Part shown: one piece after another, positions 4,679-58,591 of the stretch
Layout: every line of letters begins with the position of its first letter
How positions within the stretch are numbered: position 1 is the stretch's first letter
NCBI RefSeq assembly: GCF_006345805.1
Contig: NC_043006.1
Span: 3,224,001 to 3,288,000, forward strand
Direction: 5' to 3'
DNA: 64,000 nt
Source: Octopus sinensis
Lineage: Eukaryota
Notes under the pieces: generated by a model
Told to the model about the DNA's origin: nothing
Database searches by the model: none
What the model saw: the letters and a program-made list of their open reading frames with translations, nothing else
Translations under genes and position numbers: made by a program

Positions 4679-5060
4679 ACCTCTGTTTGTTTGATTCCCC
4701 GTATTGTATTCTCTTTTTATTTCTCGTCTTGTGTTTTATTGTGCAGTTTTATTGTTACATCCTGTTTGTGTTCTTACCCGTTTTACCCCGCTGCTTGGAA
4801 TTTTATTTTAATTCTCTCGCAGGAAGGCCTATTTGACGATGTGTCCTGTCGTGCCTTCGAAACACGCTTGAGTTAACTAGCGACAGCTGATGACGGTGGA
4901 TTTTTCCTTGTGTAGCATGTCCTGTACTTGTTTTCTTGTAAAAATTTTTGTTTTTCCCGTTTCTACGTCTTGTTGTGGCGTCCTGTACTTACGTATATTT
5001 ATTTATATATGCATGTATATATACATGTAGATGTATGTACGTACATATATGTTTGTATGT
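4679..5060 (+). mobile_element. (TA)n-inserted non-coding element (PLE pLTR-like), copy A
   Basis: Colinear with the reverse complement of 32305-32720; shared gtcctgtac and tacatgtaga...gtacgtacatatatg 3' motifs; flanked by (TA)n. Confidence 0.65.
4788..4896 (+). ncRNA. Putative hammerhead ribozyme of non-standard pseudoknotted topology, copy A
   Basis: Stem III tgtgt(4840-44)/acacg(4862-66); C17=4845; stem I ctgtcgt(4846-52)/gcgacag(4880-86); stem II gaaggc(4823-28)/gccttc(4853-58); GAAA 4859-62; CUGAUGA 4887-93. Confidence 0.7.
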
Positions 5061-5156
5061 ATGCATATATTTTTATTTATTACATTATTGTCTGACAGCG
5101 CCTCGCGTCAGGTTCGTTTCGATTTGTCGGTTCGTTCCACTTCTTGTCTCCATTTA

Positions 5157-5187
<31 letters not shown>

Positions 5188-8265: not shown

Positions 8266-8269
<4 letters not shown>

Positions 8270-9274
8270 GGTATGTAGAAAAATACAACATGGACAAGAA
8301 CGTATAACTCCTAGAAGACGACACAACAAACACGGACAGGACACTCGAAACCCCCAGTCTTCAGTCAAGAACCGGATCATCGTAGCAACTTCGGCTGATC
8401 AATCTTGAGACTACTAGATCACGGCCAGCCCTCCAAGAAAAACTAAGCAACGAGCATTAGAAAAACTAAGCTGGAAGCGTAGATTTCCTGGAAGAAGGAT
8501 CGAATGCATACGAACACCAGGACAGCAAAAGGGACAGATATAAAAAAAACAAAAAACAATAATGGAATACAGAAACATGAAATACAGAAGCATTAACGGT
8601 GAAAACAACAAGTGTCTTACGACTGATAACAAGCAAACAAATTTTTCTCTGGCGCATTGGAAGAAGCTTTATAGCGGCGGACGAAAAACAACGATGTTAA
8701 CACGACGAGGGTCAGGAGCTGAAAGGCAGATTCGGCCAACAGTCACGTGACACAGAAGAGGGAAAAGAAAAGAAAGAGAAGCAAAGGAAGAGTGAGAGAG
8801 AGGAGGGACAAACGCAACAAAGAGAGAGAAGAGAGAGAAAGAAGGAATCAGAGAGGAGAAGGATGGGTGTCGAAGAATGACCTGTGAGTGCAGAGCGAGA
8901 CAAAGAAATAGGAGGGTAGTGGAAGACTAGACCAAAGAATCAGAGGAAAGAGAAGAGAAAAAGAGGATGAGTAGAGAGAAAAGAGAGAGAGGGGACAGAT
9001 CAAGTAAAAATGAGAGAGAGAGAGAGACAAACAGAGAGTCGTACCAATTATTAAGAATATGTGCTCACATTAATGATAAGGGGGGTACGGGGCGCCTGGA
9101 ATATATGTTAAGGTATGTAGAAAAATACAACATGGACAAGAACGTATAACTCCTAGAAGACGACACAACAAACACGGACAGGACACTCGAAACCCCCAGT
9201 CTTCAGTCAAGAACCGGATCATCGTAGCAACTTCGGCTGATCAATCTTGAGACTACTAGATCACGGCCAGCCCT

Positions 9275-9277
<3 letters not shown>
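8266..9277 (-). mobile_element. Non-autonomous element with 170-bp terminal direct repeats (partial tandem pLTR-like), inserted in (TA)n
   Basis: 8266-8435 matches 9108-9277 (period 842 bp); no ORF; (TA)n on both sides. Confidence 0.85.
8351..8477 (-). ncRNA. Putative hammerhead ribozyme of non-standard topology, copy D (core repeated at 9193-9272)
   Basis: Minus strand: stem II ggctg/cagcc; stem III tagtagt/gttgcta (A15.1->G); GUC triplet (C17=8409); stem I tcaaga/tcttga; CUGAAGA; closing helix cttccag/ctggggg. Confidence 0.6.
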
Positions 9278-14729: not shown

Positions 14730-16044
14730 ACAAAATATTAAGGAATGACCCTGAGAAGGTCGTTCGACTCACTTGAAAAGAACAGCTAAAACTCAAAACT
14801 GCAAAAAATAGTAATTCTGAAACTAGAGGAAAATAAAAAACATTTATCCCCTTCAAACTTTGTACCCTGCAAGGTTTCAACATCTTCACGCAATCAAATT
14901 TAATTAAATTAAATTAAATCCGTTTACGCTTGGCTTGTCTCGTCAGCAAAGTCACCAAAATAGGAGGCAGATATATATACACGAGGCTACACCATCTAAG
15001 CCTCGGGTCTATATATCGTAAATTTTCGAATTCACCGTAATCGCGCCATCTACTCCGCAGCAAATATAAGCTGCTGATACAAATTTCAGAATTAGTCAAA
15101 AATTCATTAATCAATCAATATAAGGGTAACAAAAAATTCAAGAAAACTTTTCTGCCACCAGCGGTCAAGTGAGAAAATAGAAATAGTCACAGACTATATG
15201 ATACATTCAACAAAATATTAAGGAATGACCCTGAGAAGGTCGTTCGACTCACTTGAATAGAGCAGCTAAAACTCAAAACCGCAAAAAATAGTAATTCTGA
15301 AACTAGAGGAAAGTAAAAAACATTGCAGGTTACAAAGTTTGAAGGGGATAAATGTTTTTTATTTTCCTCTAGCTTCAGAATTACTATTTTTTGCGGTTTT
15401 GAGTTTTAGCTGCTCTTTTCAAGTGAGTCGAACGACCTTCTCAGGGTCATTCCTTAATATTTTGTTGAATGTATCATATAGTCTGTGACTATTTCTATTT
15501 TCTCACTTGACCGCTGGTGGCAGAAAAGTTTTCTTGAATTTTTTGTTACCCTTATATTGATTGATTAATGAATTTTTGACTAATTCTGAAATTTGTATCA
15601 GCAGCTTATATTTGCTGCGGAGTAGATGGCGCGATTACGGTGAATTCGAAAATTTACGATATATAGACCCGAGGCTTAGATGGTGTAGCCTCGTGTATAT
15701 ATATCTGCCTCCTAGTTTGGTGACTTTGCTGACGAGACAAGCCAAGCGTAAACGGATTTAATATAATTTAATTAAATTTGATTGCGTGAAGATGTTGAAA
15801 CCTTGCAGGGTACAAAGTTTGAAGGGGATAAATGTTTTTTATTTTCCTCTAGTTTCAGAATTACTATTTTTTGCGGTTTTGAGTTTTAGCTGCTCTTTTC
15901 AAGTGAGTCGAACGACCTTCTCAGGGTCATTCCTTAATATTTTGTTGAATGTATCATATAGTCTGTGACTATTTCTATTTTCTCACTCGACCGCTGGTGG
16001 CAGAAAAGTTTTCTTGAATTTTTTGTTACCCTTATATTGATTGA
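14730..16044. repeat. 480-bp tandem unit with an inversion near 15324 (about 1.2 units forward, 1.5 units reverse) in (TA)n
   Basis: 14730 sequence recurs at 15210; mirrored ORFs 14914-15114(-)/15561-15761(+) and 14707-14889(-)/15786-15968(+). Confidence 0.92.
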
Positions 16045-20640: not shown

Positions 20641-22595
20641 ATAAATAAAATATTTTATTGCGGGGAAAATATGAAAAATCAACGAAAATGCACATTGTAA
20701 ATAAAAAAAGAAAAGGCTTTTAATGACAGGTAACGACAGATATATACATTTAGATGGACTGAGGTAGTAATAAAAGTCATTATTATGAGATGATTATAAG
20801 ATGATTATAAAGTCAGAAAACAAAGCATACCATGGTTTCCGCAAAGCTATTCATTGCTTTGTATAAACACCGGCTAATAAACGGGGTCAGGTCTAATAGT
20901 TCCTGAGAAAAAAGATTATTTGTAAGGGAGGTAAGTAGTTCTGGATTTAAATATAGAATTGTAATGTGGATGGTGTAGGGAGTGTATAGGGGTTAGTGGT
21001 TTTAATTGAAGGGTTAGTAGTGTTCTGCATTGAGTTGTGTGTTCATATTTAGTTGGGGGAGATATTTATTGATGAAAAATGCCTCTTTATTCAACCTTTG
21101 TTGCATTGTGGTGTTTTGTGAACATTGATAGAAGGGGAAGATTTGGAAATTAGGATTAAGATTCCTGGCACACCTTTCTATGTGTTCACTAAGCTGTAAC
21201 TGTCTGTATTGTGGTTGGCGGATTTGCTCTTTGTGAATGGTAGTTCTTCGACGGAGTGAAATTCCTGTTTGTCTAATATAGCGGTTACCACATCCTATGC
21301 ATGTCATGACACAGATTACATTTGCTGAGGCGCAGGGGAAATTTGGTTTGATCCTAAATATTTCTCCTTGTTTGAAGTGAAACTCTGAACCCTCCAGAAG
21401 GTGGGGGAATGTTCCACAGTTAGGACGACCACATTTTTTTCACTTTTGGCTCTGTTGTTAGTGGATATAGTCCTGCGCTGGTTAATATTCTTTTCAGTGA
21501 CTTCGGTTGCATTTTGCTTTTTATAATTTTATATGAGCTTAAAATTTCGTTCATTGTTTTGTCTGCTGTGAGGATGGGAAGGTTTTGGGTGATGATGTTG
21601 AAGGCTTCGTTGTTTCTAGGGTTATGTGTGGAGATGTACGGGAGTATTTTTAAGTCTTGGTTAGTATTTCGGCTGGTGTGCCTTAACATTTATATATCTA
21701 TTTCCTTAGCTCTTTTGGTGCATTCATTTATTAATGAGATTGGGTAATGTCTTTTAGTTAGTGTTGAGCTAAGTTCAAGGAGTCTTTGTTCACGAGTATA
21801 TGTATCCGAAACTATGGTACAGATTCTTTTCGCTAGATTAAAGGGTATATTAATGTTTATGTGTTTGGGGTGGCAAGAGTTAAATAATAGGTATTGTTTA
21901 GAATCTGTGGGTTTATAAAAGATGTCTGTTTCTAAGTGGTTGTTAACTATTTTAATTAAGATGTCTAGAAAAGGGAGTTGCTTACTGTTGTGTTCCATAG
22001 TAAATTGTATATTGCTATGTATATTGTTAAGCATTATTTTGAAATCAAGGAGTTTATCCATGCTGTCTTTCCAAATTATGAAGCAATCATCCAAATATCT
22101 CTTCCATTTCTCCTTTAAATAGCAATTAAAAGAGGCGCCATATTTTTCTAGTGATGATTGGTATAACTTGAGTTCTAGGTAACTCATTACAAGGTTTGCA
22201 ATCACTGGAGCAGCTCTCGTTCCCATTGCAATTCCACATTTTTGTCGATAGTAAGTTGTATCGAACATGAAATAATTGTTCAGCAGGATGAATTTGAGTG
22301 CTTCAATTATAAAACTGTGGTTAATGCGTCCAGGGATCTCTTCTGGGTATTTTTCTAGCCAGAAAGTGATTGCTTCTACACCAGAGTCGTGTGGGGTATT
22401 GGTGTATAGACTCACCACATCGAAAGACACCAGCAGTGTTCCTTCCTTTACTGTCTTCGGGAGGTGGTTCAGCATGTCTAGGTCATCCTTGATAAAGCTT
22501 TTCACATATTTTTAAAAAGGTTTGAGTAATATGTCGAGGAAGTTGCTCAAACGGTGGGTTTCAACAAGAAGGGCCAGCTATGATGGGTCTCAGTT
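20641..22595 (-). mobile_element. 5'-truncated Penelope-like retroelement (RT plus C-terminal GIY-YIG), frameshifted
   Basis: SFDVVSLYTN, GIAMGTRAAP, WKRYLDD, LPFLD, FYKPTD..QYL; C..C...YI.QTG.SLRRR...H endonuclease; 3' pLTR. Confidence 0.95.
20820..20862 (-). ncRNA. Minimal hammerhead-like motif in the pLTR, A3:U8 core
   Basis: acaaagca-AUGAAUA-gc(ttt)gc-g-GAAAC-catg-GUA-tgctttgt. Confidence 0.65.
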
Positions 22596-22954: not shown

Positions 22955-22965
22955 AAACGTCTGAC

Positions 22966-23073
22966 GCTTACAGCACCTAGGTTTCCCAAGCGCTCACCCA
23001 TCTAAGTACTAACTAGGCTCGACGTTGCTCAATTTCGGTGATCGGACGAAAACCGGTGCTTTCAACGTGATAT
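22966..23073 (-). pseudogene. 5S rRNA pseudogene lacking about the first 9 nt
   Basis: Minus strand cacgttgaaagcaccggttttcgtccgatcaccgaaattgagcaacgtcgagcctagttagtacttagatgggtga...tgctgtaagc is metazoan 5S with substitutions. Confidence 0.9.
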
Positions 23074-23589
23074 TATTCATTAAATACTAAGTCTCTAGAT
23101 GAAAGTCAGTTATCTCGGTATAATATTGAAAATTCCGGGATCGAAACTTGGAAATGAAGACCAGCAATCCAAATGCTTGTTCCAGATTTATGCGGTGTGT
23201 ATATACTATATCCCGAGGATAGTTCATCAATTTCCTTACACACATTTCAAATTAATACAAATGCGACTTTGGAGATAATAATGCCTTTTTCGTCACTAGA
23301 AACGAAATGTTGTATCTAGGGAAGGTCATTTCACTTCTTTATTATCCATCAATTCGTTAACTATTTGATCAAAGAACTAATCGATTATTCGATGAATCAA
23401 TCAATCAATTATATTTATCAATGCCCTTTCGTCGCCATCCGCGATCTCTTCAATGACATGCCTTCTCTACTCCAAGTGTTTATACAATAATTGCAAATGA
23501 AAGAGAAATGTTAGATCGATGACATGTTTCACCGATAACTGCTTTCTCCTATATCGTAGTGTTCATACTACTACTACTACTACTACTAT

Positions 23590-26657: not shown

Positions 26658-26794
26658 GTATATAAATATATATACATATATTATATATTGACATACATAT
26701 ATATATATACCAGTATACACACACACATATACACACAGACATATATATATATATATATATATAATATGCCTTATTTATATATATATACAATATA

Positions 26795-26833
<39 letters not shown>

Positions 26834-26841
26834 CATATATG

Positions 26842-27290
26842 GGTACAGGACGTCACCAACAGTAAACTACATGAAATACGAAAACAAATGAGTTAAATAC
26901 GCAAACAGCGAGAGAAAAAATGAAAAACAAGACGAGTAATACAAAAAATAGAAAGAACGACCCTTCATCAGTTGTCGGCTGTCTATCAGCTCCCCATTTC
27001 GAGAAATCAAAGACAACATGAGTATTCAAAGACAGTTGCTCCCATGAATACCAAAATAGATTTTCGATTTATAGAGGGCCAAATTTGGGAACAAAAACAG
27101 GACAGCGGAGACGTACAAGGAAACCGAACGAAAACAAACATGGGGGTCGTTTGACTTGAAGGAGGGGAAAATAGTGAACGTTGAGAGAAATATTTTCTTT
27201 GAAAAGAGTAAAGATAGAAGAGAGAGATAGCAGACGTCTAGTCCTTTTAACGTCCGTGCAGGAAAAGAAAAGACGTTCTAAGGACTGGAC
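26842..27290 (-). mobile_element. (TA)n-associated non-coding element (PLE pLTR-like), copy C
   Basis: Ends gacgtcctgtaccc before (TA)n; same architecture as copies A and B. Confidence 0.55.
26959..27080 (-). ncRNA. Putative hammerhead of non-standard topology, copy C (G at position 17, probably inactive)
   Basis: Stem III ctcat/atggg; stem I ttgtc/gacaa; stem II gag/ctc; GAAA; CUGAUGA; closing helix ggccct/agggtc. Confidence 0.55.
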
Positions 27291-27309
27291 ATCTCCTACC
27301 TCTCTCTTC

Positions 27310-27617
27310 TATCTTTTCTCTTTTCAAAGACTCAAACAACTTCCGGTGGTGCATATTTTGTTTGTCACAATCCACCGATAGTTCTTGTTGACGAACAACG
27401 GCAGTAATTTTATTCAGCTGAATACACGTCATTGATTGGTTGAAATTACCGAAATACGACAACTTTAACACGAAATAACTTTGAAAATATAAACTTTTCT
27501 CAACAAAACTAAGAGTAAAAAATGTTTTATATGACATATTCGACCAGTGTCCGAAGTTTGAAAGTGTTTAGTTACAAAAAATAATTTCTCGATCTGCTGT
27601 TCAAAGGGAAGGGTTCC
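27310..27617. mobile_element. Diverged partial relative of the 17129-17545 MITE
   Basis: Shared acgtcattgattggttgaaatt...ttttctcaa...atgttttat...agtttgaaagtgtttagttac. Confidence 0.7.
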
Positions 27618-32175: not shown

Positions 32176-32288
<113 letters not shown>

Positions 32289-32304
32289 TAATAAATGAAA
32301 TAAA

Positions 32305-33170
32305 ACATATGCATATATATAAACATATATGTACGTACCTACCTCTACATGTACATATACACGCATATATGAGTACAGGACACCAAAAGGACGTCGAACA
32401 CAATGAGAAACGAAAACATAGACACAAACCAAAGGAACTGGACATTGTTTTCAAAAACAACAAAAAATGGAGTACAGGACAATTAACACAAGGAAAAAAA
32501 CCCTTCTTCAGTCGCTATGGTTTCACCTACTCTACGTTTCGAAGGATAAAAGCAAGACGTATCTTCGACAAGAAACTTTCCTTCCTGCGAAAAGCAAATC
32601 AATTAAAATTCTGAAATCTTTTCGCAGAGGGGTAAAAAATGGTTAAAAAATGGTAAAAAAACAGGACAGTAACGACAGTACAAAAATATAAACAGTAAAA
32701 GACAGGACAGGGAAAAACAAGATAAGAAGGGCTGTTGACGCCGAACGAAAAAAGTATTGCAAACGCAGAACTTTTTGTGAACGACAGGGGAGCAGGAAGA
32801 ATGTCGTCCAGTTACCTTGAAAGGCCAGGCCAGAAAGACAGTCAGAGCGGAAGTATCGTCGCGGGTGGACGACGGGAAGGGGGGAGGAGGAGCAAGAGGA
32901 AGGGAGAGAAGAAGGGAAATGGCTGCGAGGAAACCATGAAGAATTGTGAGGGGGAGAGAGAGAGTGAAGAATGAGAGAGAGAGAGGAAGAGACAAGTTAA
33001 GTAGAGGAAAAAGAAAATCAAAGAATAGGGATGGGACAATGGAATTGTTACTATGAAGCACTGTATAGATTATATTGTATAAAAGATCGTAGGTAAGGCT
33101 AGAACAATGCGGCGAAGTAAATGCAATGCGAATCACAAGAAAACAAATATATGAATTAATGTAGACTTGC
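32305..33170 (-). mobile_element. (TA)n-inserted non-coding element (PLE pLTR-like), copy B
   Basis: Colinear with 4679-5060; purine-rich plus-strand interior like 8500-9040. Confidence 0.65.
32501..32631 (-). ncRNA. Putative hammerhead ribozyme of non-standard topology, copy B
   Basis: Stem III tacgt/acgta; GUC triplet (C17=32556); stem I ttgct/agcga; stem II gaagga/tccttc; GAAA; CUGAAGA; closing helix ccct/aggg; hairpin ctgcgaaaag/cttttcgcag. Confidence 0.72.
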
Positions 33171-39469: not shown

Positions 39470-40722
39470 GGTGAGAAAGTTGGTGTGTGAAAGGATGTGG
39501 TTGAATATATAGAAAATAGTAAAAAGTGAAAAAACTACAGAAGGCTTGTTTTAGAAGGTTAAAAAATATATATTTGAGTTATTATGTCTGAAGAATGTTA
39601 TAAATTTTTTTCATACAATGACATAGTTTTTGAAGAAAGACCGGTTTCGCGTTCAGCTTTTCAAATTTCTTACATCGTTATGTTTACGTTGAGAAGTGTG
39701 AAGGAGAGTGAAAGAGAGTTCCAGATAAGGGGAGGTAATAAGTGATTTCTTCCGGTGTAAGGGAGATAATCGCTTAATATTTCTTGCCTTTCTTTTGGAG
39801 TGAGTTTCTCTGTATAAGAATGTTGGAATGGTTAAGTTTGGGCTTGTATTTTTCAATGAAGAATGTTTCCTTGTTTAGTCTAATATGTGTTGGTGTTCCG
39901 ATAGCACATTGGTAAAATGGAAAGATTAAAAATTGTGGTAGTAGTTGCTTTGCGCATTTCTCAATGTGCTCACTAAAGGGTATTATTCTGTATTCTGGGA
40001 ATGCAATCTGTTGTCGATGCAGTGTGCATCTACGTCTGAGTGATAGTCCCGTGGACCCCACGTGGTTTTGGTGGCAGCCCGAGCATTTTATGACATAAAT
40101 TATGTTTTCAGAGGCACAAGTAAAATTAGATTTGATCTTGAATTTCTGTCCCTCTTTGAAGAAGAATTCTGATCCTTCTAGCAGGTTTGGACATGTTGCA
40201 CAGTTCGGTCTACCACATTTTTTTACTTTTGCATCCGTAATTTCAGAAAACAATTTTGCCTTTGTGAGAATCTTTTAAAGTGATTTAGGTTGTTTGTAGC
40301 TTTTAATGATTTGGTGTGTGTTTAAAATTTCCTTTAATTTGGGGTCCTTATGAAGTATTGGTAAATTCTGGGTGATGATGGTGAAGGCTTCTTTGTTTCT
40401 GGGGTTGTATGTGGATATGTAAGGTAGTATTTTCGGGGAAGGTATGTTGTTGTGTTGAACTTTTTTCAAAGTTTCTATGTTGATTTCTGTTGCACGTCTG
40501 ATCCCATACTCTATGAGTTGAGCTGGGTAATGTCTGTCAATTAGGGTGTTTTTGAGTTCTTGCAGTCTAAAGTTCCTGGTATTTTGTTCTGACACTATTG
40601 TGCATATCCTTCTTGCAAGGTTGAAGGGGATGTTTGTTTTAGTGTGTCTTGGGTGGCATGAATCAAAAAGTAGGTATTGTTTGGCGTCTGTGACTTTGTA
40701 AAAAATGTCTGTTTCTATTTTA
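39470..40722 (-). mobile_element. 5'-truncated Penelope-like element (RT thumb, GIY-YIG, pLTR)
   Basis: FYKVTDAKQYL; KKCGRPNCATC...NIIYVIKCSGC...VGSTG.SLRRR; same family as 57627-58598. Confidence 0.95.
39633..39671 (-). ncRNA. Minimal hammerhead-like motif, U3:A8 core
   Basis: aagaaa(t)-UUGAAAA-gc(tgaac)gc-GAAAC-cg-GUC-tttctt. Confidence 0.7.
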
Positions 40723-40724
40723 GA

Positions 40725-41488
40725 CGACCTTTTGTTTTTTTTTCACAGAGTTCTAGAGTGACCGTTTTTCACCATCTTCTTGTAACACCCATACATTTGT
40801 CCAATGATCTTTGTAAGTGACTCGTAACATTCTCCAATACATCCACATTTCAAACATATTTGATTTTGTTCTCTTCAAATTTCTTCAGTGTCCATCCTTC
40901 GCAACCATAAATACTTATCAGCCAAATGAGTGCTCATACGAGCCTTATTTTCTAAATTTAATTGTGGCACTTTTGCTGGTTCAGTTGTTATCAAGCTTTT
41001 CCCTAGACGTTCCTGCCATGGCTAACCGTGACCTAATTTCTTACTTGTATCTTCATCTGAGATCTGGGCTCCAGCATACTTGTACAATTTAACCTGTTCG
41101 AGCTTCTCACTATTCAGTCTGATGTTAACGTTTACTTACTCTTTTCCTACTACGGTGACTTTTGTTTTATTATAATTCAGATAAAGACTATGCGCATACC
41201 TTCTCGATTCTATATATCATTTCTTGCAGTCCGGTTTCGGTCTTGGCAAGTAGAGCACTATCGTCTGCCTATCTTAGATTAGAAATATGCAAAACCATTT
41301 ATTTTGATACCATCTTTTTCCTGTATTGGTTCTCGCATTACCCACTTATTGGATAATGAGGTATTTCGAAATACCAAGATTGGTCATGATGCGTCACATG
41401 TGGCTATAGTTTTCACAGTCAACGGCCTTTCTGTAGTCAACGTACCGAAGCAAAGCTGTAAGGTTGTGAGCTCTTGTATTTTTCCCTA
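40725..41488 (-). mobile_element. RTE LINE RT fragment
   Basis: YVDYRKAVD, ADDSALLA, KTKV, EIRSRLAMA motifs. Confidence 0.8.
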
Positions 41489-51804: not shown

Positions 51805-54800
51805 ATTATTCAGTTTTATTTCAAGATTTTTTGCAAATAGAGAGTCTGTTTCTAAACTAGATTCAAAGCTACTTCATTAGAATTTGAACATCAACAACAG
51901 GGTATGTTTGTTTGTATGCATGTATGTATGTATGTGTGAATGTATGTATATATGAATGTATGTATGTATGTATGTATGTATGTATGTATGTATGTATGTA
52001 TGTATATTTGTATGTATGTATATGTGCAGATTTGTATCTTTTGCTTTACATGTGCATATATATTTAAATGATAAATTTCTGGAAAGTTGTAATCTGGATA
52101 GAGTAACTGCAGATTCTTCAATAATCCGGCGTAGGTGTTCTCTTTTTCACTGATCTTCAGCTTTATGTTAACATCAACTGGGCAGCTAATTTCCACAACT
52201 GTGCACAATTTCTCTTTATCCCAAATCATTAAATCATGTCTGTTGTACTTACATGTTATTGAAGTCTTCACTAGGACATTCCACCAGTACTCCTTGTTTA
52301 TTATGAGTAACTATGGCTTCTACCATACTGTGGGATCTTATTTCTTTGCTTGGGGTTATCCTTCCGACGGATTTCTTTATAGTGTCCCTAGCTACAACAT
52401 AAGTCTCATCGGTAGATAAAACCATGGTGACATTTTCGGACAATAGCTTATGATATGGGTGTATGTATATATGTAAAGGAAGTGAGCAACATTGTACGAG
52501 TTGCCAGTGAACTCCTCACGAAACACTCTCTCCTGCTCACTTCACTTTTCAGCACTGCATTTATATGTTTATTTTTGCTGCTGTTGTTTAGCAGGTGCTG
52601 CCTGAGTGATACCATACAGCATTCAAAGGCCGTCTGCACTGATCACAGGCCTCTACCACCATGCCTGTATCAGCTGAAAATGTTGTTATCAATTCCAGTT
52701 GTCTTTGGCATTGTTAACACGTTTAGCATAAATCTTCAGGTCGTCTACGAAGAAATTATGAGTTACATTGATATTTCTGGTAGTTGAAGATCCTAGCATG
52801 TAACCATTTGTTTTCTGCAGTAGAAACGATAATGGATTCAGTGCCAAAACGAAAAGAAATACAGAAAGACTATCTCCCTGGACCATTCCCTTTGTAATGC
52901 CTATACTATTAGAAACAATTATTGTGTTCTCAGTTGTAAGGGTAAGAATAGCTGTCCATGTCTTTGTGAGTCTCTCTATAGCAACAATTAAGGTAGTATG
53001 TACCTTTGCCAGATGTAGGCACTTCAACAGCCATGAATGAAGGATAGAGTCAAATGCCTTCTTATAGTCAGGTCATACGGTTACAATGCGTTGTTTTCTT
53101 ACTTCAGATAGTACAGCTTTGTTTATTAAAAGTTGTTCGGCCGTCATCCCCACACTCCCTTCTTTCCACCATCCTATTCATCAGTCACAATGTTGTTAAA
53201 CTCTCAATGGTCCTGGAGGAATTGGTTGAGGTAACTTGTGTATAGTTTATACATATTGTTTAAGCAAGCAATGGGCCTGTAGTTTCCTGCCATCTCGGTG
53301 ATTTCATTTTTGGCAACAAGATTTGTCTTTGTGTAGCAATGTGATATACCAGTCTGACCTTCCGTAGTCCTTTTGAACATACATATCAATTAGTTCTATA
53401 AAATATCAGCTTCTTGTATCAATATCCAGCTATTAGGTCCTTTCTAGATGCCTTCCCATTCTGCAGTTTGCCTACTGCTATAGCGAAGGTCTCTGCATCA
53501 ATTTTCTATGTTTTACTGTTAGTGTTGGTACAGTATTCTCTCTCAATCGTATTTAACCATGATACACTCAGTTTGAAATCCATCCTTTTGTTCCAAACTT
53601 TTGATCAGAATGATTGTAGGTCTTCTTGGGAGGGAGTTTTTTTGATGGAAATATTTTCTTTCCTCGTCTCTCTCTCTATAATTCTTGTGGGTTGGAAGCA
53701 AACTTGTGATTGATACTCAAAAAGTCGCTTGCAATAGCGGAGTTTCTCGCTCATCGTCCTGAGTTCATGTTTTAAAGTGATTTGCTTTCCCTCAAGAGCT
53801 CGGTGTGAAGAGTTGCCATAAAGATTCATTAATTTTTGTCTGAGGTAGAGTTGGTGAGGTGTAAACTCATTTTTTCTCCTTACATTTTATTGTTGTAGTT
53901 AACCATCCAATATGGCGGCGCACGTTGTTGATGTTTTCGTCAAGTTTTGTTTTCCATCTAGTTTGTTTCCGTTTAGTAATTTCGTTATTTTGTTCACTGT
54001 AGATTTCTCCTAAAGTGTTCTTTAAGAGTAATAGCGGCTGTGTATATAAGAGTATTACTATTCTAGTAATTAGCATCCCATGATTCCATGTGCTCTCCAG
54101 CAACATCGTTGATAACCTTAAACATTAGATCGGTCGGATTTTTCTCTCACTCGCGCTGAGAATAGTCTGTTGCTCAACGAAAACTTCGAGAGAGTAGCAA
54201 AAGGTTTTGCGAATTGTAATTCTGAAATGCTTATGAGTTGGTTGTATTCCACAGTCTCGCTACTGAGTCAGCTAAATTTGGAGACACACTCGAATTTAGC
54301 GATGGCGGAAGTGGTCGTTTGTTTACAATTTTTTTTACGCCGCTCCTGGCAGATTTTGACCCGTTTTCAGTGTTTTGGGAAGATCGAAGACGAGTGTTTT
54401 TTTTTTTCCAAAAGATGCTTGTTGTCGGAGCTGTTTTACCATGAAGGTATTTAAGTTCGGATAAGCTTCCTCCTAGTATTGTTTTTTTAACCGGTTCATA
54501 TATCCGATTGAAAGGTTATCTCAGGCTTTTTTCATAGCACCGACGTAAATCTTGGTTTAGTTGTTGAGTCCAAGTAAAATGAGAAGATTTCTTACGTCTT
54601 CTGAAATATTTTACCGGTGAAATTGTTCTGTTTTCATCGGTGGTGACGTTGTTAGTTTCATCTGCGGTGGAGTTAGTTTCAGCCATAATCGTGATAGCGA
54701 GATACAACGTGGTGTAGATGTATATTTTAAAATCTGCTTAGGATAGTGCTACGATGGCGAGAAAAAGGTGTTTCTCTTATTAATTGTTGGAGAAATAAAC

Positions 54801-55579: not shown

Positions 55580-56275
55580 TTAAATAAAATGAGACAACAA
55601 AACCAAAGCTGTGTGGAATTTATGGGACATTTATAAAGAAAAAGCTAGTCTTACAGCTGTTTCAGGGATATTAGGGAAATCCCTTCAGCAGAGACGATAT
55701 GAGAGAGTTAACCAGTGGGAAATGGTAGAGTTCAATATAAGGAGATATTTTTGGAAAAAGATGGATATAGGAAGTATAAAGGGAAACAAGAGAATGAAAA
55801 TAAAAATATATGTAGGATGTTATAGTTGCAGTTCCATTATCCAAGGAAAGTGTTGTATAGAATGGGTAGAAACGCTTCTTGTCCATGATATGCAGGTTCC
55901 GGTAGGAGTTCACATTCTACTATCTACTTGTAATAACAAAATATGTACTCCTACCGGAACCTGCATATCATGGACAAGAAGCGTTTCTACCCATTCTACA
56001 CAACACTTTCCTTGAATAATGGAACTGCAACTATAACATCCTACATATATTTTTATTTTCATTCTCTTGTTTTCCTTTATACTTCCTATATCCATCTTTT
56101 TCCAAAAATATCTCCTTATATTGAACTCTACCATTTCCCACTGGTTAACTCCCTCATATCGTCTCTGCTGAAGGGATTTCCCTAATATCCCTGAAACAGC
56201 TGTAAGACTAGCTTTTTCTTTATAAATGTCCTATAAATTCCACACAGCTTGGTTTACTTGTCTCATTTTATTTAA
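55580..56275. repeat. Long inverted duplication (~330-bp arms, ~37-bp spacer) of a pLTR-like sequence
   Basis: 55580-55909 is the reverse complement of 55947-56275 with few mismatches. Confidence 0.95.
56161..56208 (+). ncRNA. Minimal hammerhead-like motif, A6C core (mirror copy 55648-55695, minus strand)
   Basis: gtct-CUGCUGA-agggat(9 nt)atccct-GAAAC-agct-GUA-agac. Confidence 0.68.
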
Positions 56276-57626: not shown

Positions 57627-58591
57627 GATAAGAAAGTTTGTTTGGTAAAGCACGTGGGTGAATATATAAGAAAATAGTAAAGTGTGAAAAAACGACAGAA
57701 GGCTTAAATGTTAAAAAATATATATATTTGTGTCAAAATGTCTGGAGAATATTGCAAAAATTTTTTTTCCTTTCCTTAAAATGACATAATTTAAAATTTT
57801 TTTAAAGAAATTACCGGTTTCGCGTGTAGCTTTTCAAATTTCTTGTGACGTTATGTTTATATTGCATGGAGTTATCGTTGTGTTCATTTCCAGGAGATTT
57901 CTAAATAAGGGGAGGTAGTGAGTGATTTCTTCCGGTGTAAGGGAGATAATCGCTTAAAAATTTTTTTCCCTTTTCCTTGTTAATTTCTCTGTGTCAGTAT
58001 GTTCGGATGGTTGAGTCTGGGTTTGTACTTTTCAATGAAGAATGTTTCCTTGTTCAGTCTCATTTGTGTTGATGATCCGAAAGCACATTGGTAAAATGGG
58101 AAGATTAAAAATTGTGGCAGTAGTTGCTTTGCGAGCAACTACTGCCACAATTTTAATCTTCCCATTTTACCAATGTGCTTTCGGATCATCAACACAAATG
58201 AGACTGAACAAGGAAACATTCTTCATTGAAAAGTACAAACCCAGACTCAACCATCCGAACATACTGACACAGAGAAATTAACAAGGAAAAGGGAAAAAAA
58301 ATTTTTAAGCGATTATCTCCCTTACACCGGAAGAAATCACTCACAACCTCCCCTTATTTAGAAATCTCCTGGAAATGAACACAACGATAACTCCATGCAA
58401 TATAAACATAACGTCACAAGAAATTTGAAAAGCTACACGCGAAACCGGTAATTTCTTTAAAAAATTTTAAATTATGTCATTTTAAGGAAAGGAAAAAAAA
58501 TTTTTCCAATATTCTCCAGACATTTTGACACAAATATATATATTTTTTAACATTAAGCTTTCTGTCGTTTTTTCACACTTTACTATTTTCT

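What the first reader, a model, noticed from the sequence alone, without database searches (positions are those of the whole stretch)
4788..4896. Hammerhead ribozyme core in a strand order that is not type I, II or III, covarying across four diverged elements
Seen: copies A (4788-4896 +), B (32501-32631 -), C (26959-27080 -) and D (8351-8477 -) read 5'-P0, hairpin, stem II, linker 1, stem III'-UH-stem I, stem II', GAA(A/G)-stem III, linker 2, stem I', CUGANGA, P0'-3'. The GAAA-to-CUGANGA spacing is 24, 25, 25 and 24 nt. Helix sequences differ but pairing holds. Stem III: tgtgt/acacg, tacgt/acgta, ctcat/atggg, tagtagt/gttgcta. Stem I: ctgtcgt/gcgacag, ttgct/agcga, ttgtc/gacaa, tcaaga/tcttga. 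Stem II: gaaggc/gccttc, gaagga/tccttc, gag/ctc, ggctg/cagcc, always G10.1:C11.1. P0: ccg/cgg, ccct/aggg, ggccct/agggtc, cttccag/ctggggg. The triplet is GUC in A, B and D. Established: natural hammerheads are classed as types I-III, which are simple circular permutations with A9 joined directly to 10.1. Inference: here the cleaved strand lies inside loop II, and the open ends plus an extra hairpin are inserted between A9 and G10.1. That gives a pseudoknotted hammerhead that standard descriptors would miss. I do not know of a description of it but cannot search the literature.
Basis: partly seen in the sequence, partly recalled or inferred. Interest (0 to 1): 0.95.

Follow-up and report, generated by a model that had tools for sequence, protein, structure and literature searches.

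The report
Split-core permuted hammerhead in Naiad retroelements
Thousands of jumping-gene copies in this animal genome carry a self-cutting hammerhead RNA whose strands are wired in an order I could not find in print, and new insertions start right where it is predicted to cut, which suggests it works in living cells and supplies the ribozyme thought to be missing from Naiad retrotransposons.

Summary
Confirmed and extended. The four copies, plus a fifth truncated one, carry a full hammerhead core. Stems I and III covary across 12 variants: 97% of cells paired, 9 of 10 pairs with double changes, 0 of 500 shuffles. Non-circular hammerheads are published (types SGC/CSG/GCS, PMC10085705), but that scheme assumes CUGAnGA stays joined to its stem II strand. 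Here it is opened at A9/G10.1 and closed by an extra helix plus hairpin. The same fold lies downstream of decayed Naiad RT genes here and, read by eye, in 9 of 53 published Naiad 3' ends from four phyla, although Naiads are reported to lack canonical hammerheads. The 5' ends of insertions drop about 16-fold across the predicted scissile bond (145 vs 9 loci), and a second family shows the same step. This is an in vivo footprint of cleavage. Cleavage itself was not assayed, P0 is the least tested helix, and the present mobilising RT is unknown. Verdict: new variant of a known kind, high interest.

The parts
4681..5159 (+). Family A non-coding unit (5'-truncated copy of a ~760-nt unit), fixed 3' end running into (TA)n
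4788..4899 (+). Ribozyme A: P0 4788-4790/4894-4896; hairpin 4791-4822; stem II 4823-4828/4853-4858; P4 4833-4837/4872-4876; stem III 4840-4844/4862-4866; C17 at 4845 (cut 3' of it); stem I 4846-4852/4880-4886; GAAA 4859-4862; CUGAUGA 4887-4893. Core intact
32288..33044 (-). Family B non-coding unit (5'-truncated copy of a ~845-nt unit), 3' end into (TA)n
32499..32632 (-). Ribozyme B: P0 about 32632-32628/32504-32501; hairpin ending 32585; stem II 32584-32579/32546-32541; P4 32576-32572/32524-32520; stem III 32561-32557/32537-32533; C17 at 32556; stem I 32555-32551/32516-32512; GAAA 32540-32537; CUGAAGA 32511-32505. Core intact
26790..27330 (-). Family C copy (about 27270-26790; 3' end approximate) with a 5' inverted piece 27271-27330, as is typical of Penelope-like insertions
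   Evidence: inversion as a PLE trait from PMC8557442 passage
26959..27080 (-). Ribozyme C: P0 27080-27075/26964-26959; P4 27035-27030/26984-26979; stem III 27022-27018/26997-26993; position 17 at 27017 is G (family A), so this copy is probably dead; stem I 27016-27012/26976-26972; CUGAUGA 26971-26965
8266..9107 (-). Family D full 842-nt unit (3' copy of a partial tandem), fixed 3' end into (TA)n
8341..8507 (-). Ribozyme D: P0 8507-8494/8355-8341; hairpin 8491-8433; stem II 8430-8426/8397-8393; stem III 8416-8410/8389-8383; C17 at 8409; stem I 8408-8403/8370-8365; CUGAAGA 8364-8358. Carries private A>G changes including A15.1>G, so probably impaired
9108..9277 (-).

Best explanation
This is a self-cleaving hammerhead ribozyme with the non-circular (SGC/CSG-family) connectivity, opened at a new place. 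Shown by sequence and covariation: the strands run II(5'), L1, III'-UH-I', short link, II'-GAAA-III, L2, I-CUGANGA. L1 and L2 pair (P4) and so tie the distal ends of stems I and II, as the 'interaction' helix of type-SGC ribozymes does. Inferred: the backbone gap between A9 and G10.1 is bridged by a helical arm. The strand after A9 pairs upstream (P0), P0 stacks on a hairpin, and the hairpin's 3' end runs straight into G10.1. Inferred from family relationships: the ribozyme belongs to the 3' UTR/pseudo-LTR of Naiad Penelope-like retrotransposons, and families A-D are non-autonomous, retrozyme-like units that kept it. In the cycle, read-through tandem transcripts are cut at the UH. A PLE RT/GIY-YIG enzyme nicks (TA)n and primes at a fixed internal site 140-310 nt downstream of the cut. 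It usually runs off at the ribozyme-made 5' end (genomic footprint shown). On circularised or uncut RNA it reads through the site and makes partial tandems (inferred).
For: Core and order in 5 window copies, 0 in 50 shuffles. Stems I and III: 97.4% of 117 cells paired, 9 of 10 pairs with double-sided changes, only U16.1-A15.1 invariant, 0 of 500 shuffles; slid controls 23-54% paired. Stem II: 5 of 5 bp in each of five families against a cross-family mean of 2.8, with 2 of 20 swaps full. A conventional SGC stem II (post-A9 strand directly with the pre-GAAA strand) gives 0 bp in 14 of 14 representatives. Family E lies 0.7-1.5 kb downstream of Naiad-type RT on the same strand in 6 of 10 RT-selected loci; 2 other loci of the 10 show GIY-YIG 5' of RT. 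By eye, the complete split form is in 9 of 53 published Naiad 3' ends from ctenophore, cnidarians, an acanthocephalan and octopus. 5' ends of (TA)n-flanked insertions: family D has 145 minus-strand loci in the window -5..+12 around the cut, 96 at +15..+31 and 9 at -63..-47. Among listed loci, 29 of 30 (D) and 36 of 37 (B plus a sister subfamily) begin at -1 or further 3'. Matched microhomologies give 13 downstream against 1 upstream, p=0.0009. Fixed 3' ends, variable 5' truncation and partial tandems. Window D has 7 A>G changes and no other internal change, shared by both tandem copies.
Against: No cleavage assay was possible. P0 is short in A (3 bp plus 2), was not predicted for family E, and in A, B and C swapped G-rich tails bind about as well or better, so P0 specificity is shown only for D/D2. 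With one bulged nucleotide after A9, a G.U-rich conventional stem II of 2-4 bp can form in A, B, C and E (0 in D). Single-sequence MFE folds do not give the ribozyme fold (the program cannot form pseudoknots). No intact Naiad ORF was found in G000 among 150 and 122 scored candidates, yet family D is very young, so the mobilising RT is unidentified. Among 15 upstream tandem-copy boundaries of D listed none lies at the cut. Among 30 best hits with an intact 3' part, only L229 starts at the cut (this set is biased to long, multi-copy insertions). The downstream control anchor is shared by more subfamilies than the site anchor. The Naiad survey is by eye on 330-400-nt ends. For a canonical PLE hammerhead, cleavage was not needed for insertion in vitro and no reads ended at the site (PMC11167929).
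Confidence: 0.85

Rival explanations
1. It is an ordinary type-SGC hammerhead with one extra nucleotide after A9 (as A10 in the CChMVd plus-strand ribozyme): the G-rich strand after CUGANGA is the real stem II strand, and the upstream strand is a competitor or switch.
For: With a 1-nt bulge, 2-4 bp form in A, A2, B, C, C2 and E. A single extra residue at this step is tolerated (PMC3705267 passage). The P0 5' strand and II' have similar pyrimidine runs in A-C, and P0 swaps are not specific there.
Against: 0 bp in all five D-type representatives even with a bulge of one, and the pairs elsewhere are G.U-rich. The upstream strand gives 3-6 mostly Watson-Crick bp (5-6 in 13 of 14) starting G10.1:C11.1 and covaries between families. 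In Acropora, Clytia and the acanthocephalan Naiads, the post-A9 strand forms a 5-8-bp P0 instead (by eye).
Confidence: 0.06
2. The fold is a conserved but non-cleaving (or protein-dependent) relic or RT-binding structure, and the 5'-end step reflects a transcription start site or RT stalling.
For: Penelope pLTRs contain a start site (PMC8557442 passage). The Anolis PLE hammerhead needed protein to cleave (PMC11167929). An A9/G10.1 helix insertion has no tested precedent that I found.
Against: The step sits at the predicted bond in two families of unrelated sequence. All catalytic positions are invariant in the 12-row alignment while the helices turn over. Stalling would be expected at the 3' entry of helices, not just 3' of the cut.
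Confidence: 0.07
3. Splicing or back-splicing joins A9 to G10.1 and removes P0 and the hairpin, so that the active RNA is a conventional CSG/SGC circle.
For: A and B read pyrimidine tract plus CAG|G exactly at G10.1. E has a donor-like GAG|GTATGT 5 nt after A9. PLE pLTRs often hold an intron.
Against: No AG before G10.1 in C, C2, D2, D3 or E. The CAG is the 3' strand of the hairpin. No donor lies right after A9. No such joint was listed in four contig sets laid on D (contigs show presence only).
Confidence: 0.02

Closest known systems
Non-circularly permuted hammerheads, types SGC, CSG and GCS (PMC10085705; main text parts 1-6 of 8 read, one supplement search)
   Same: Same core. Same cyclic order of blocks S, G, C. 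Short direct link from stem I' to stem II'. A helix tying the other ends of stems I and II (here P4).
   Different: The paper assumes that no more than 1-2 nt separate CUGAnGA from its stem II strand, which gives six permutations. Here all three inter-block linkers are present and the ends lie inside block C, closed by P0 plus a hairpin. Their examples came from metatranscriptomes, metagenomes and one bacterium; these are in an animal genome in thousands of copies.
Naiad Penelope-like elements (PMC8557442; passages, supplement Files S1 and S5 ends read)
   Same: (TA)n targets, 5' truncation, partial tandems, 5' inversions. Family E matches the 3' ends of Naiad_Obim and Naiad_Ovul by eye and follows Naiad-type RT in G000.
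   Different: The paper reports no canonical hammerhead in Naiads and only flags 'HHR_core' or 'HHR_half_core'. Families A-D have no ORF and share no alignable sequence with the Naiad loci apart from the fold.
Non-LTR retrozymes (PMC7229834 passages; bioRxiv 10.64898/2026.07.22.740005 part 1 of 5 and passages)
   Same: Non-coding tandem units, each with a hammerhead, proposed to be non-autonomous PLE derivatives moving through cleaved and circular RNA.
   Different: Described ones have type I hammerheads and 150-450-bp monomers, and were found with type I descriptors. These units are 760-850 nt and carry the split permuted form.
CChMVd plus-strand hammerhead with extra A10 (PMC3705267 passage)
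   Same: Shows that the A9/G10.1 step tolerates an insertion.
   Different: One nucleotide in a circular-type ribozyme, not a chain break bridged by two helices.

Membership tests
Hammerhead ribozyme | C3-U4-G5-A6-N7-G8-A9 and G12-A13-A14 core | tested here: met
   Invariant in 12 of 12 rows of alignment A3
Hammerhead ribozyme | U16.1-A15.1 pair and NUH triplet | tested here: met
   U-A in 12 of 12 rows; family triplets GUC, GUC, AUA, AUC, GUA. The window copies of C (AUG) and D (G15.1) are private deviations
Hammerhead ribozyme | Stems I, II and III flanking the core, with covariation | tested here: met
   I and III. II: 5 of 5 bp in five families against 2.8 for swaps
Hammerhead ribozyme | Stem I-II tertiary tether | tested here: met
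   P4 of 4-9 bp in 14 of 14 representatives, plus a 0-7-nt I'-II' link; its 3D role is inferred from PMC10085705
Hammerhead ribozyme | Site-specific self-cleavage | not testable with these tools
   Only an indirect footprint: step in insertion 5' ends at the bond
Types I, II, III (circular permutations) | Block order C-G-S in cyclic sense, no core pseudoknot | tested here: not met
   Order is II5', S, G, C; no Rfam hammerhead hit
Types SGC/CSG/GCS | Cyclic block order S-G-C | tested here: met
Types SGC/CSG/GCS | Block C intact: CUGAnGA followed within 1-2 nt by its stem II strand | tested here: not met
   0 bp without a bulge in 14 of 14; 0-4 G.U-rich bp with a 1-nt bulge; the real II strand lies 62-73 nt upstream of CUGANGA
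Naiad PLE (family E) | N-terminal GIY-YIG followed by C-terminal RT | tested here: inconclusive
   GIY-YIG precedes RT in L147 and L155, and ribozyme E follows the same RT family in 6 other loci of 10, but no single locus examined shows all three
Naiad PLE (families A-D) | Coding ORF with EN and RT | tested here: not met
   Units are non-coding; tblastn with four window PLE proteins against 90 loci hit only one neighbouring element
PLE-type insertion | Fixed 3' end, 5' truncation, partial tandem, microsatellite target | tested here: met
Non-LTR retrozyme | Type I hammerhead in each tandem unit | tested here: not met
   Each unit has a hammerhead, but not type I
Non-LTR retrozyme | Expressed as linear and circular monomer RNA | tested here: inconclusive
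   No run on record as RNA; only contigs were available. Shared A>G changes in tandem copies fit one re-read template

The most novel reading that the evidence does not exclude
A seventh natural hammerhead connectivity, with block C split at A9/G10.1 and rejoined by a P0-hairpin arm, is an old and widespread ribozyme of Naiad retroelements from ctenophores to cephalopods. Nematode Naiads carry plain type CSG. Its cleavage defines the 5' end of most RNA templates that these elements reverse-transcribe, which would be direct in vivo evidence of what hammerheads do in Penelope-like transposition.
Probability: 0.7. Interest if true: 0.92.

Novelty: new variant of a known kind. Interest (0 to 1): 0.86.

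Why it matters
It breaks the block assumption behind the current six-permutation scheme, so descriptor and Rfam searches have missed an abundant class. A blind 200-kb sample extrapolates to roughly 40,000 copies in this genome (95% range about 8,000-120,000). It offers an answer to why Naiads seemed to lack hammerheads. It moves non-circular RNA permutation from anonymous metatranscriptome contigs into animal genomes, where related forms (CSG, SGC-like, split) can be placed on one retroelement tree to ask how permutations evolve. The step in insertion 5' ends makes the open question of hammerhead function in PLEs testable. A helix arm at A9/G10.1 is also a new attachment site for ribozyme engineering.

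Tried and rejected
Rfam scan of the window: no hammerhead family. Link to Neptune-type PLEs: family C lies about 1 kb downstream of a Neptune-type endonuclease in L061, but that element has its own end with a canonical-like minimal hammerhead, so the adjacency is chance. Four near-intact 769-782-aa Neptune-type ORFs show no split ribozyme in the 3' UTR read, and A-D units share only low-complexity matches with them. Search for an intact Naiad in G000: only decayed copies. Metagenome scan: 4 Naiad-like loci of 273 candidate stretches, none with CUGANGA in the 3' UTR and no Rfam ribozyme. Expression: no RNA holder listed. Contigs of four runs guessed to be RNA cover the D unit, and one run has loose ends that look like a cDNA adapter (motif recalled), but contigs give no strand, ends or level; not used as evidence. 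Restoring canonical connectivity through tandem or circular neighbours: A9 stays about 700 nt from the next II strand, so rejected. Excess of boundaries at the cut among long insertions: not seen. MFE folding of single sequences is uninformative for this pseudoknot. The covariance model could be run only on fetched loci, not genome-wide, so the family inventory is incomplete; it recovered family E only weakly (13-20 bits). My alignment A2 held a mis-cut row and was replaced by A3. Family E was left out of A3 because it misaligned at U16.1.

Full report
OBSERVATION. The four loci are as described. A descriptor requiring stems III and I of at least 4 bp and an upstream G-C-closed stem II found A, B, D and a fifth copy (CUGAAGA at 9206, minus strand), and nothing in 50 shuffled windows. 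C was missed because its window copy reads AUG. Rfam gave no hammerhead among 144 matches at E<=1. The order is P0, hairpin, II(5'), L1, III'-UH-I', link, II'-GAAA-III, L2, I-CUGANGA, P0'.

COVARIATION. Searches of the own genome G000 (2.7 Gb) with A, B, C and D gave 1861, 2290, 2837 and 2425 first-look candidates, of which 40 each were scored; these are not copy numbers. Flanks yielded diverged subfamilies and a fifth family, E. In a 12-row alignment of A-D variants (family E left out because it misaligned), the core letters are invariant. Stems I and III are paired in 97.4% of 117 cells, 9 of 10 pairs have double-sided changes, and only U16.1-A15.1 never varies. No shuffle of 500 reached the paired fraction or the covariation score (25 of 500 reached the pair count), and slid controls fall to 23-54%. 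The rows are partly related, so the shuffles are not probabilities. Stem II has 5 of 5 bp in each of five families against 2.8 on average for swaps. The conventional alternative, the post-A9 strand with the pre-GAAA strand, gives 0 bp in 14 of 14 without a bulge and 0-4 G.U-rich bp with one. Two-strand folding predicts a hairpin ending 0-1 nt before G10.1 together with P0 in 10 of 13 cases. The hairpin is frayed in the window C copy, the partner of the post-A9 strand lies further upstream in C2, and neither family E copy gives P0. A swap control shows specificity only for D/D2. P0 is therefore the weakest helix.

THE ELEMENTS. A, B and D sit in non-coding, pyrimidine-rich units of about 760, 845 and 842 nt. 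Insertions have fixed 3' ends running into (TA)n (two preferred ends in A), variable 5' truncation and partial head-to-tail tandems (the output of 29 was cut in the middle). The window C copy has a 5' inverted piece. These are the traits given for Penelope-like elements in PMC8557442 (passages). Family D is very young: most of 37 copies differ from the majority at 0-2 of 362 positions. A blind sample of 20 x 10 kb at round coordinates gave 3 model hits at E<1e-5 plus one weak hit. That extrapolates to about 40,000 copies, with a 95% range of 8,000-120,000.

LINK TO NAIADS. [quoted passage not shown] Family E matches by eye the 3' ends of Naiad_Obim and Naiad_Ovul, which also suggests an octopus host. 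In G000, E lies on the same strand downstream of a Naiad-type RT in 6 of 10 RT-selected loci, and two others show GIY-YIG upstream of RT. I read by eye the last 330-400 nt of 53 of the 54 published Naiad consensus sequences, with wider context for five. The complete split form is in 9: Bfor (stem I only 2 bp), Chem-3, Amil, Aacu, Anas, Movir-2, Plae, Obim and Ovul. These span Ctenophora, Cnidaria, Acanthocephala and Mollusca; the three Acropora and two octopus entries are close relatives. Esco shows it with a degenerate stem II. Six nematode Naiads carry plain type CSG. Several arthropod Naiads have S-G-C-ordered cores that I could not resolve. The rest showed other motifs or none in view. These readings were not run through any tool. 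Only decayed Naiad ORFs were found in G000, and the near-intact ORFs examined are Neptune-type without this ribozyme. The enzyme that moves A-D today is unknown.

IN VIVO FOOTPRINT. If transcripts are cut, reverse transcription should often end at the cut. I searched for (TA)3 within 16 nt upstream of fixed anchors. For D, minus-strand loci (listed once each) number 145 for starts at -5..+12 relative to the bond, 96 at +15..+31 (anchor shared with more subfamilies) and 9 at -63..-47. The first 100 of 742 rows are 30 loci: 29 begin at -1 or further 3', and one at -3..-1. The same microhomologies occur on both sides of the cut (TAATC at +8 and -5, ATC at +10 and -3) and were used 13 times downstream and once upstream (p=0.0009). 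For B and a sister subfamily, the first 100 of 453 rows are 37 loci, 36 at -1 or further 3'. One of the blind-sample hits (L200) starts at the bond. Against: long insertions show no excess at the site. A start site at exactly the predicted bond in two unrelated families is an unlikely rival, but it is not excluded.

RNA INTERMEDIATE. The window's D insertion differs from the majority by seven A>G changes on the ribozyme strand and nothing else internally, and both tandem copies share them. L086 has three copies sharing four A>G and three other changes; three of its A>G sites recur in the window copy. This fits A-to-I editing of one RNA that was copied more than once, that is a circle or a template jump. 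Local duplication after insertion or an unseen edited donor are not excluded. Editing as the cause rests on my own knowledge of ADAR. Public runs gave no usable expression evidence.

MECHANISM. Shown: conserved core, covarying stems, PLE-type insertions, the 5'-end step. Inferred: the active site equals the standard one; the I'-II' link and P4 hold stems I and II together, as tested for type SGC (PMC10085705); and P0 stacked on the hairpin replaces the A9-G10.1 bond. Because P0' is transcribed last and the II strand first, folding needs the whole 110-170-nt domain, which may delay cleavage. Window copies A and B look active; C and D look impaired.

COMPARISON AND NOVELTY. It works like a hammerhead and meets every sequence test. 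It is not type I-III. It shares the cyclic order of SGC/CSG/GCS but fails their intact-block-C definition: PMC10085705 says that no known alignment has more than 1-2 nt there and that none of its RNAs came from genomes of known organisms except one bacterial candidate. I found no description of this form or of permuted hammerheads in Naiads in searches (listings). Nor did I find one in keyword passages of PMC3088659, PMC11167929, PMC13725137, PMC10162972, PMC7229834, PMC6765202, PMC6155905 and the 2026 retrozyme preprint. The library lacks most subscription papers. PMC13725137 cites variants 'with additional helices', including Weinberg et al. 2015, which was not held and could bear on novelty; most of the Eckert supplement and the closed preprint supplements were also not seen. 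Unchecked notes of this scan mention rearranged hammerheads in PLEs of other genomes; they are leads, not support. Verdict: real, a new variant of a known kind, interest 0.86.

Noticed in passing
L143:73-3948, L145:294-4136, L146, L144 (metagenome contigs): Long-ORF Naiad-like elements with N-terminal GIY-YIG, RT and an added C-terminal ubiquitin carboxyl-terminal hydrolase domain (PF00443, E about 1e-29 in the two scanned). No CUGANGA and no Rfam ribozyme in the 3' UTRs.
   Followed up: partly
PMC8557442 supplement File S5, nematode Naiads Nbra-1/-2/-3, Hcon, Hpol, Asuum: By eye, complete type-CSG hammerheads with an interaction helix at the 3' end. Type CSG was published from only two metagenome sequences.
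   Followed up: partly
same file: Movir-1, Mgal, Bpla, Mphi, Scon, Mmer: Twister-like motifs (pattern recalled, untested) in place of the hammerhead, suggesting ribozyme swapping among Naiads.
   Followed up: no
same file: oyster, hemichordate and Clytia-1/-2 Naiads: A shared structured 3' UTR motif (GGCGGGTG ... CACCTG in most) that I could not assign; a candidate for another ribozyme.
   Followed up: no
same file: Ptep, Smim, Dst-1/-2/-4: Arthropod Naiads with S-G-C-ordered hammerhead cores and unusual stem II regions; possibly a further variant.
   Followed up: partly
window 21014-22511 (-) and 39774-40742 (-): Broken Neptune-type PLE RT and GIY-YIG fragments; the second has a hammerhead-like remnant near 39655.
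   Followed up: partly
window 22965-23084 (-): 5S rRNA-like sequence, 71.4 bits, next to a dispersed repeat.
   Followed up: no
window 14730-15945 and 55601-56255, 57791-58471: Long near-perfect inverted repeats; the first holds CUGACGA motifs at 15729 and 14946 and may be an inverted PLE end.
   Followed up: no
L157-L160 (G000): Near-identical, apparently recent Neptune-type elements with an upstream ORF and a 769-782-aa RT-EN frame; a candidate trans-mobiliser of families A-D.
   Followed up: partly
window 52689-53072 (-): Fragment of another non-LTR reverse transcriptase (PF00078).
   Followed up: no
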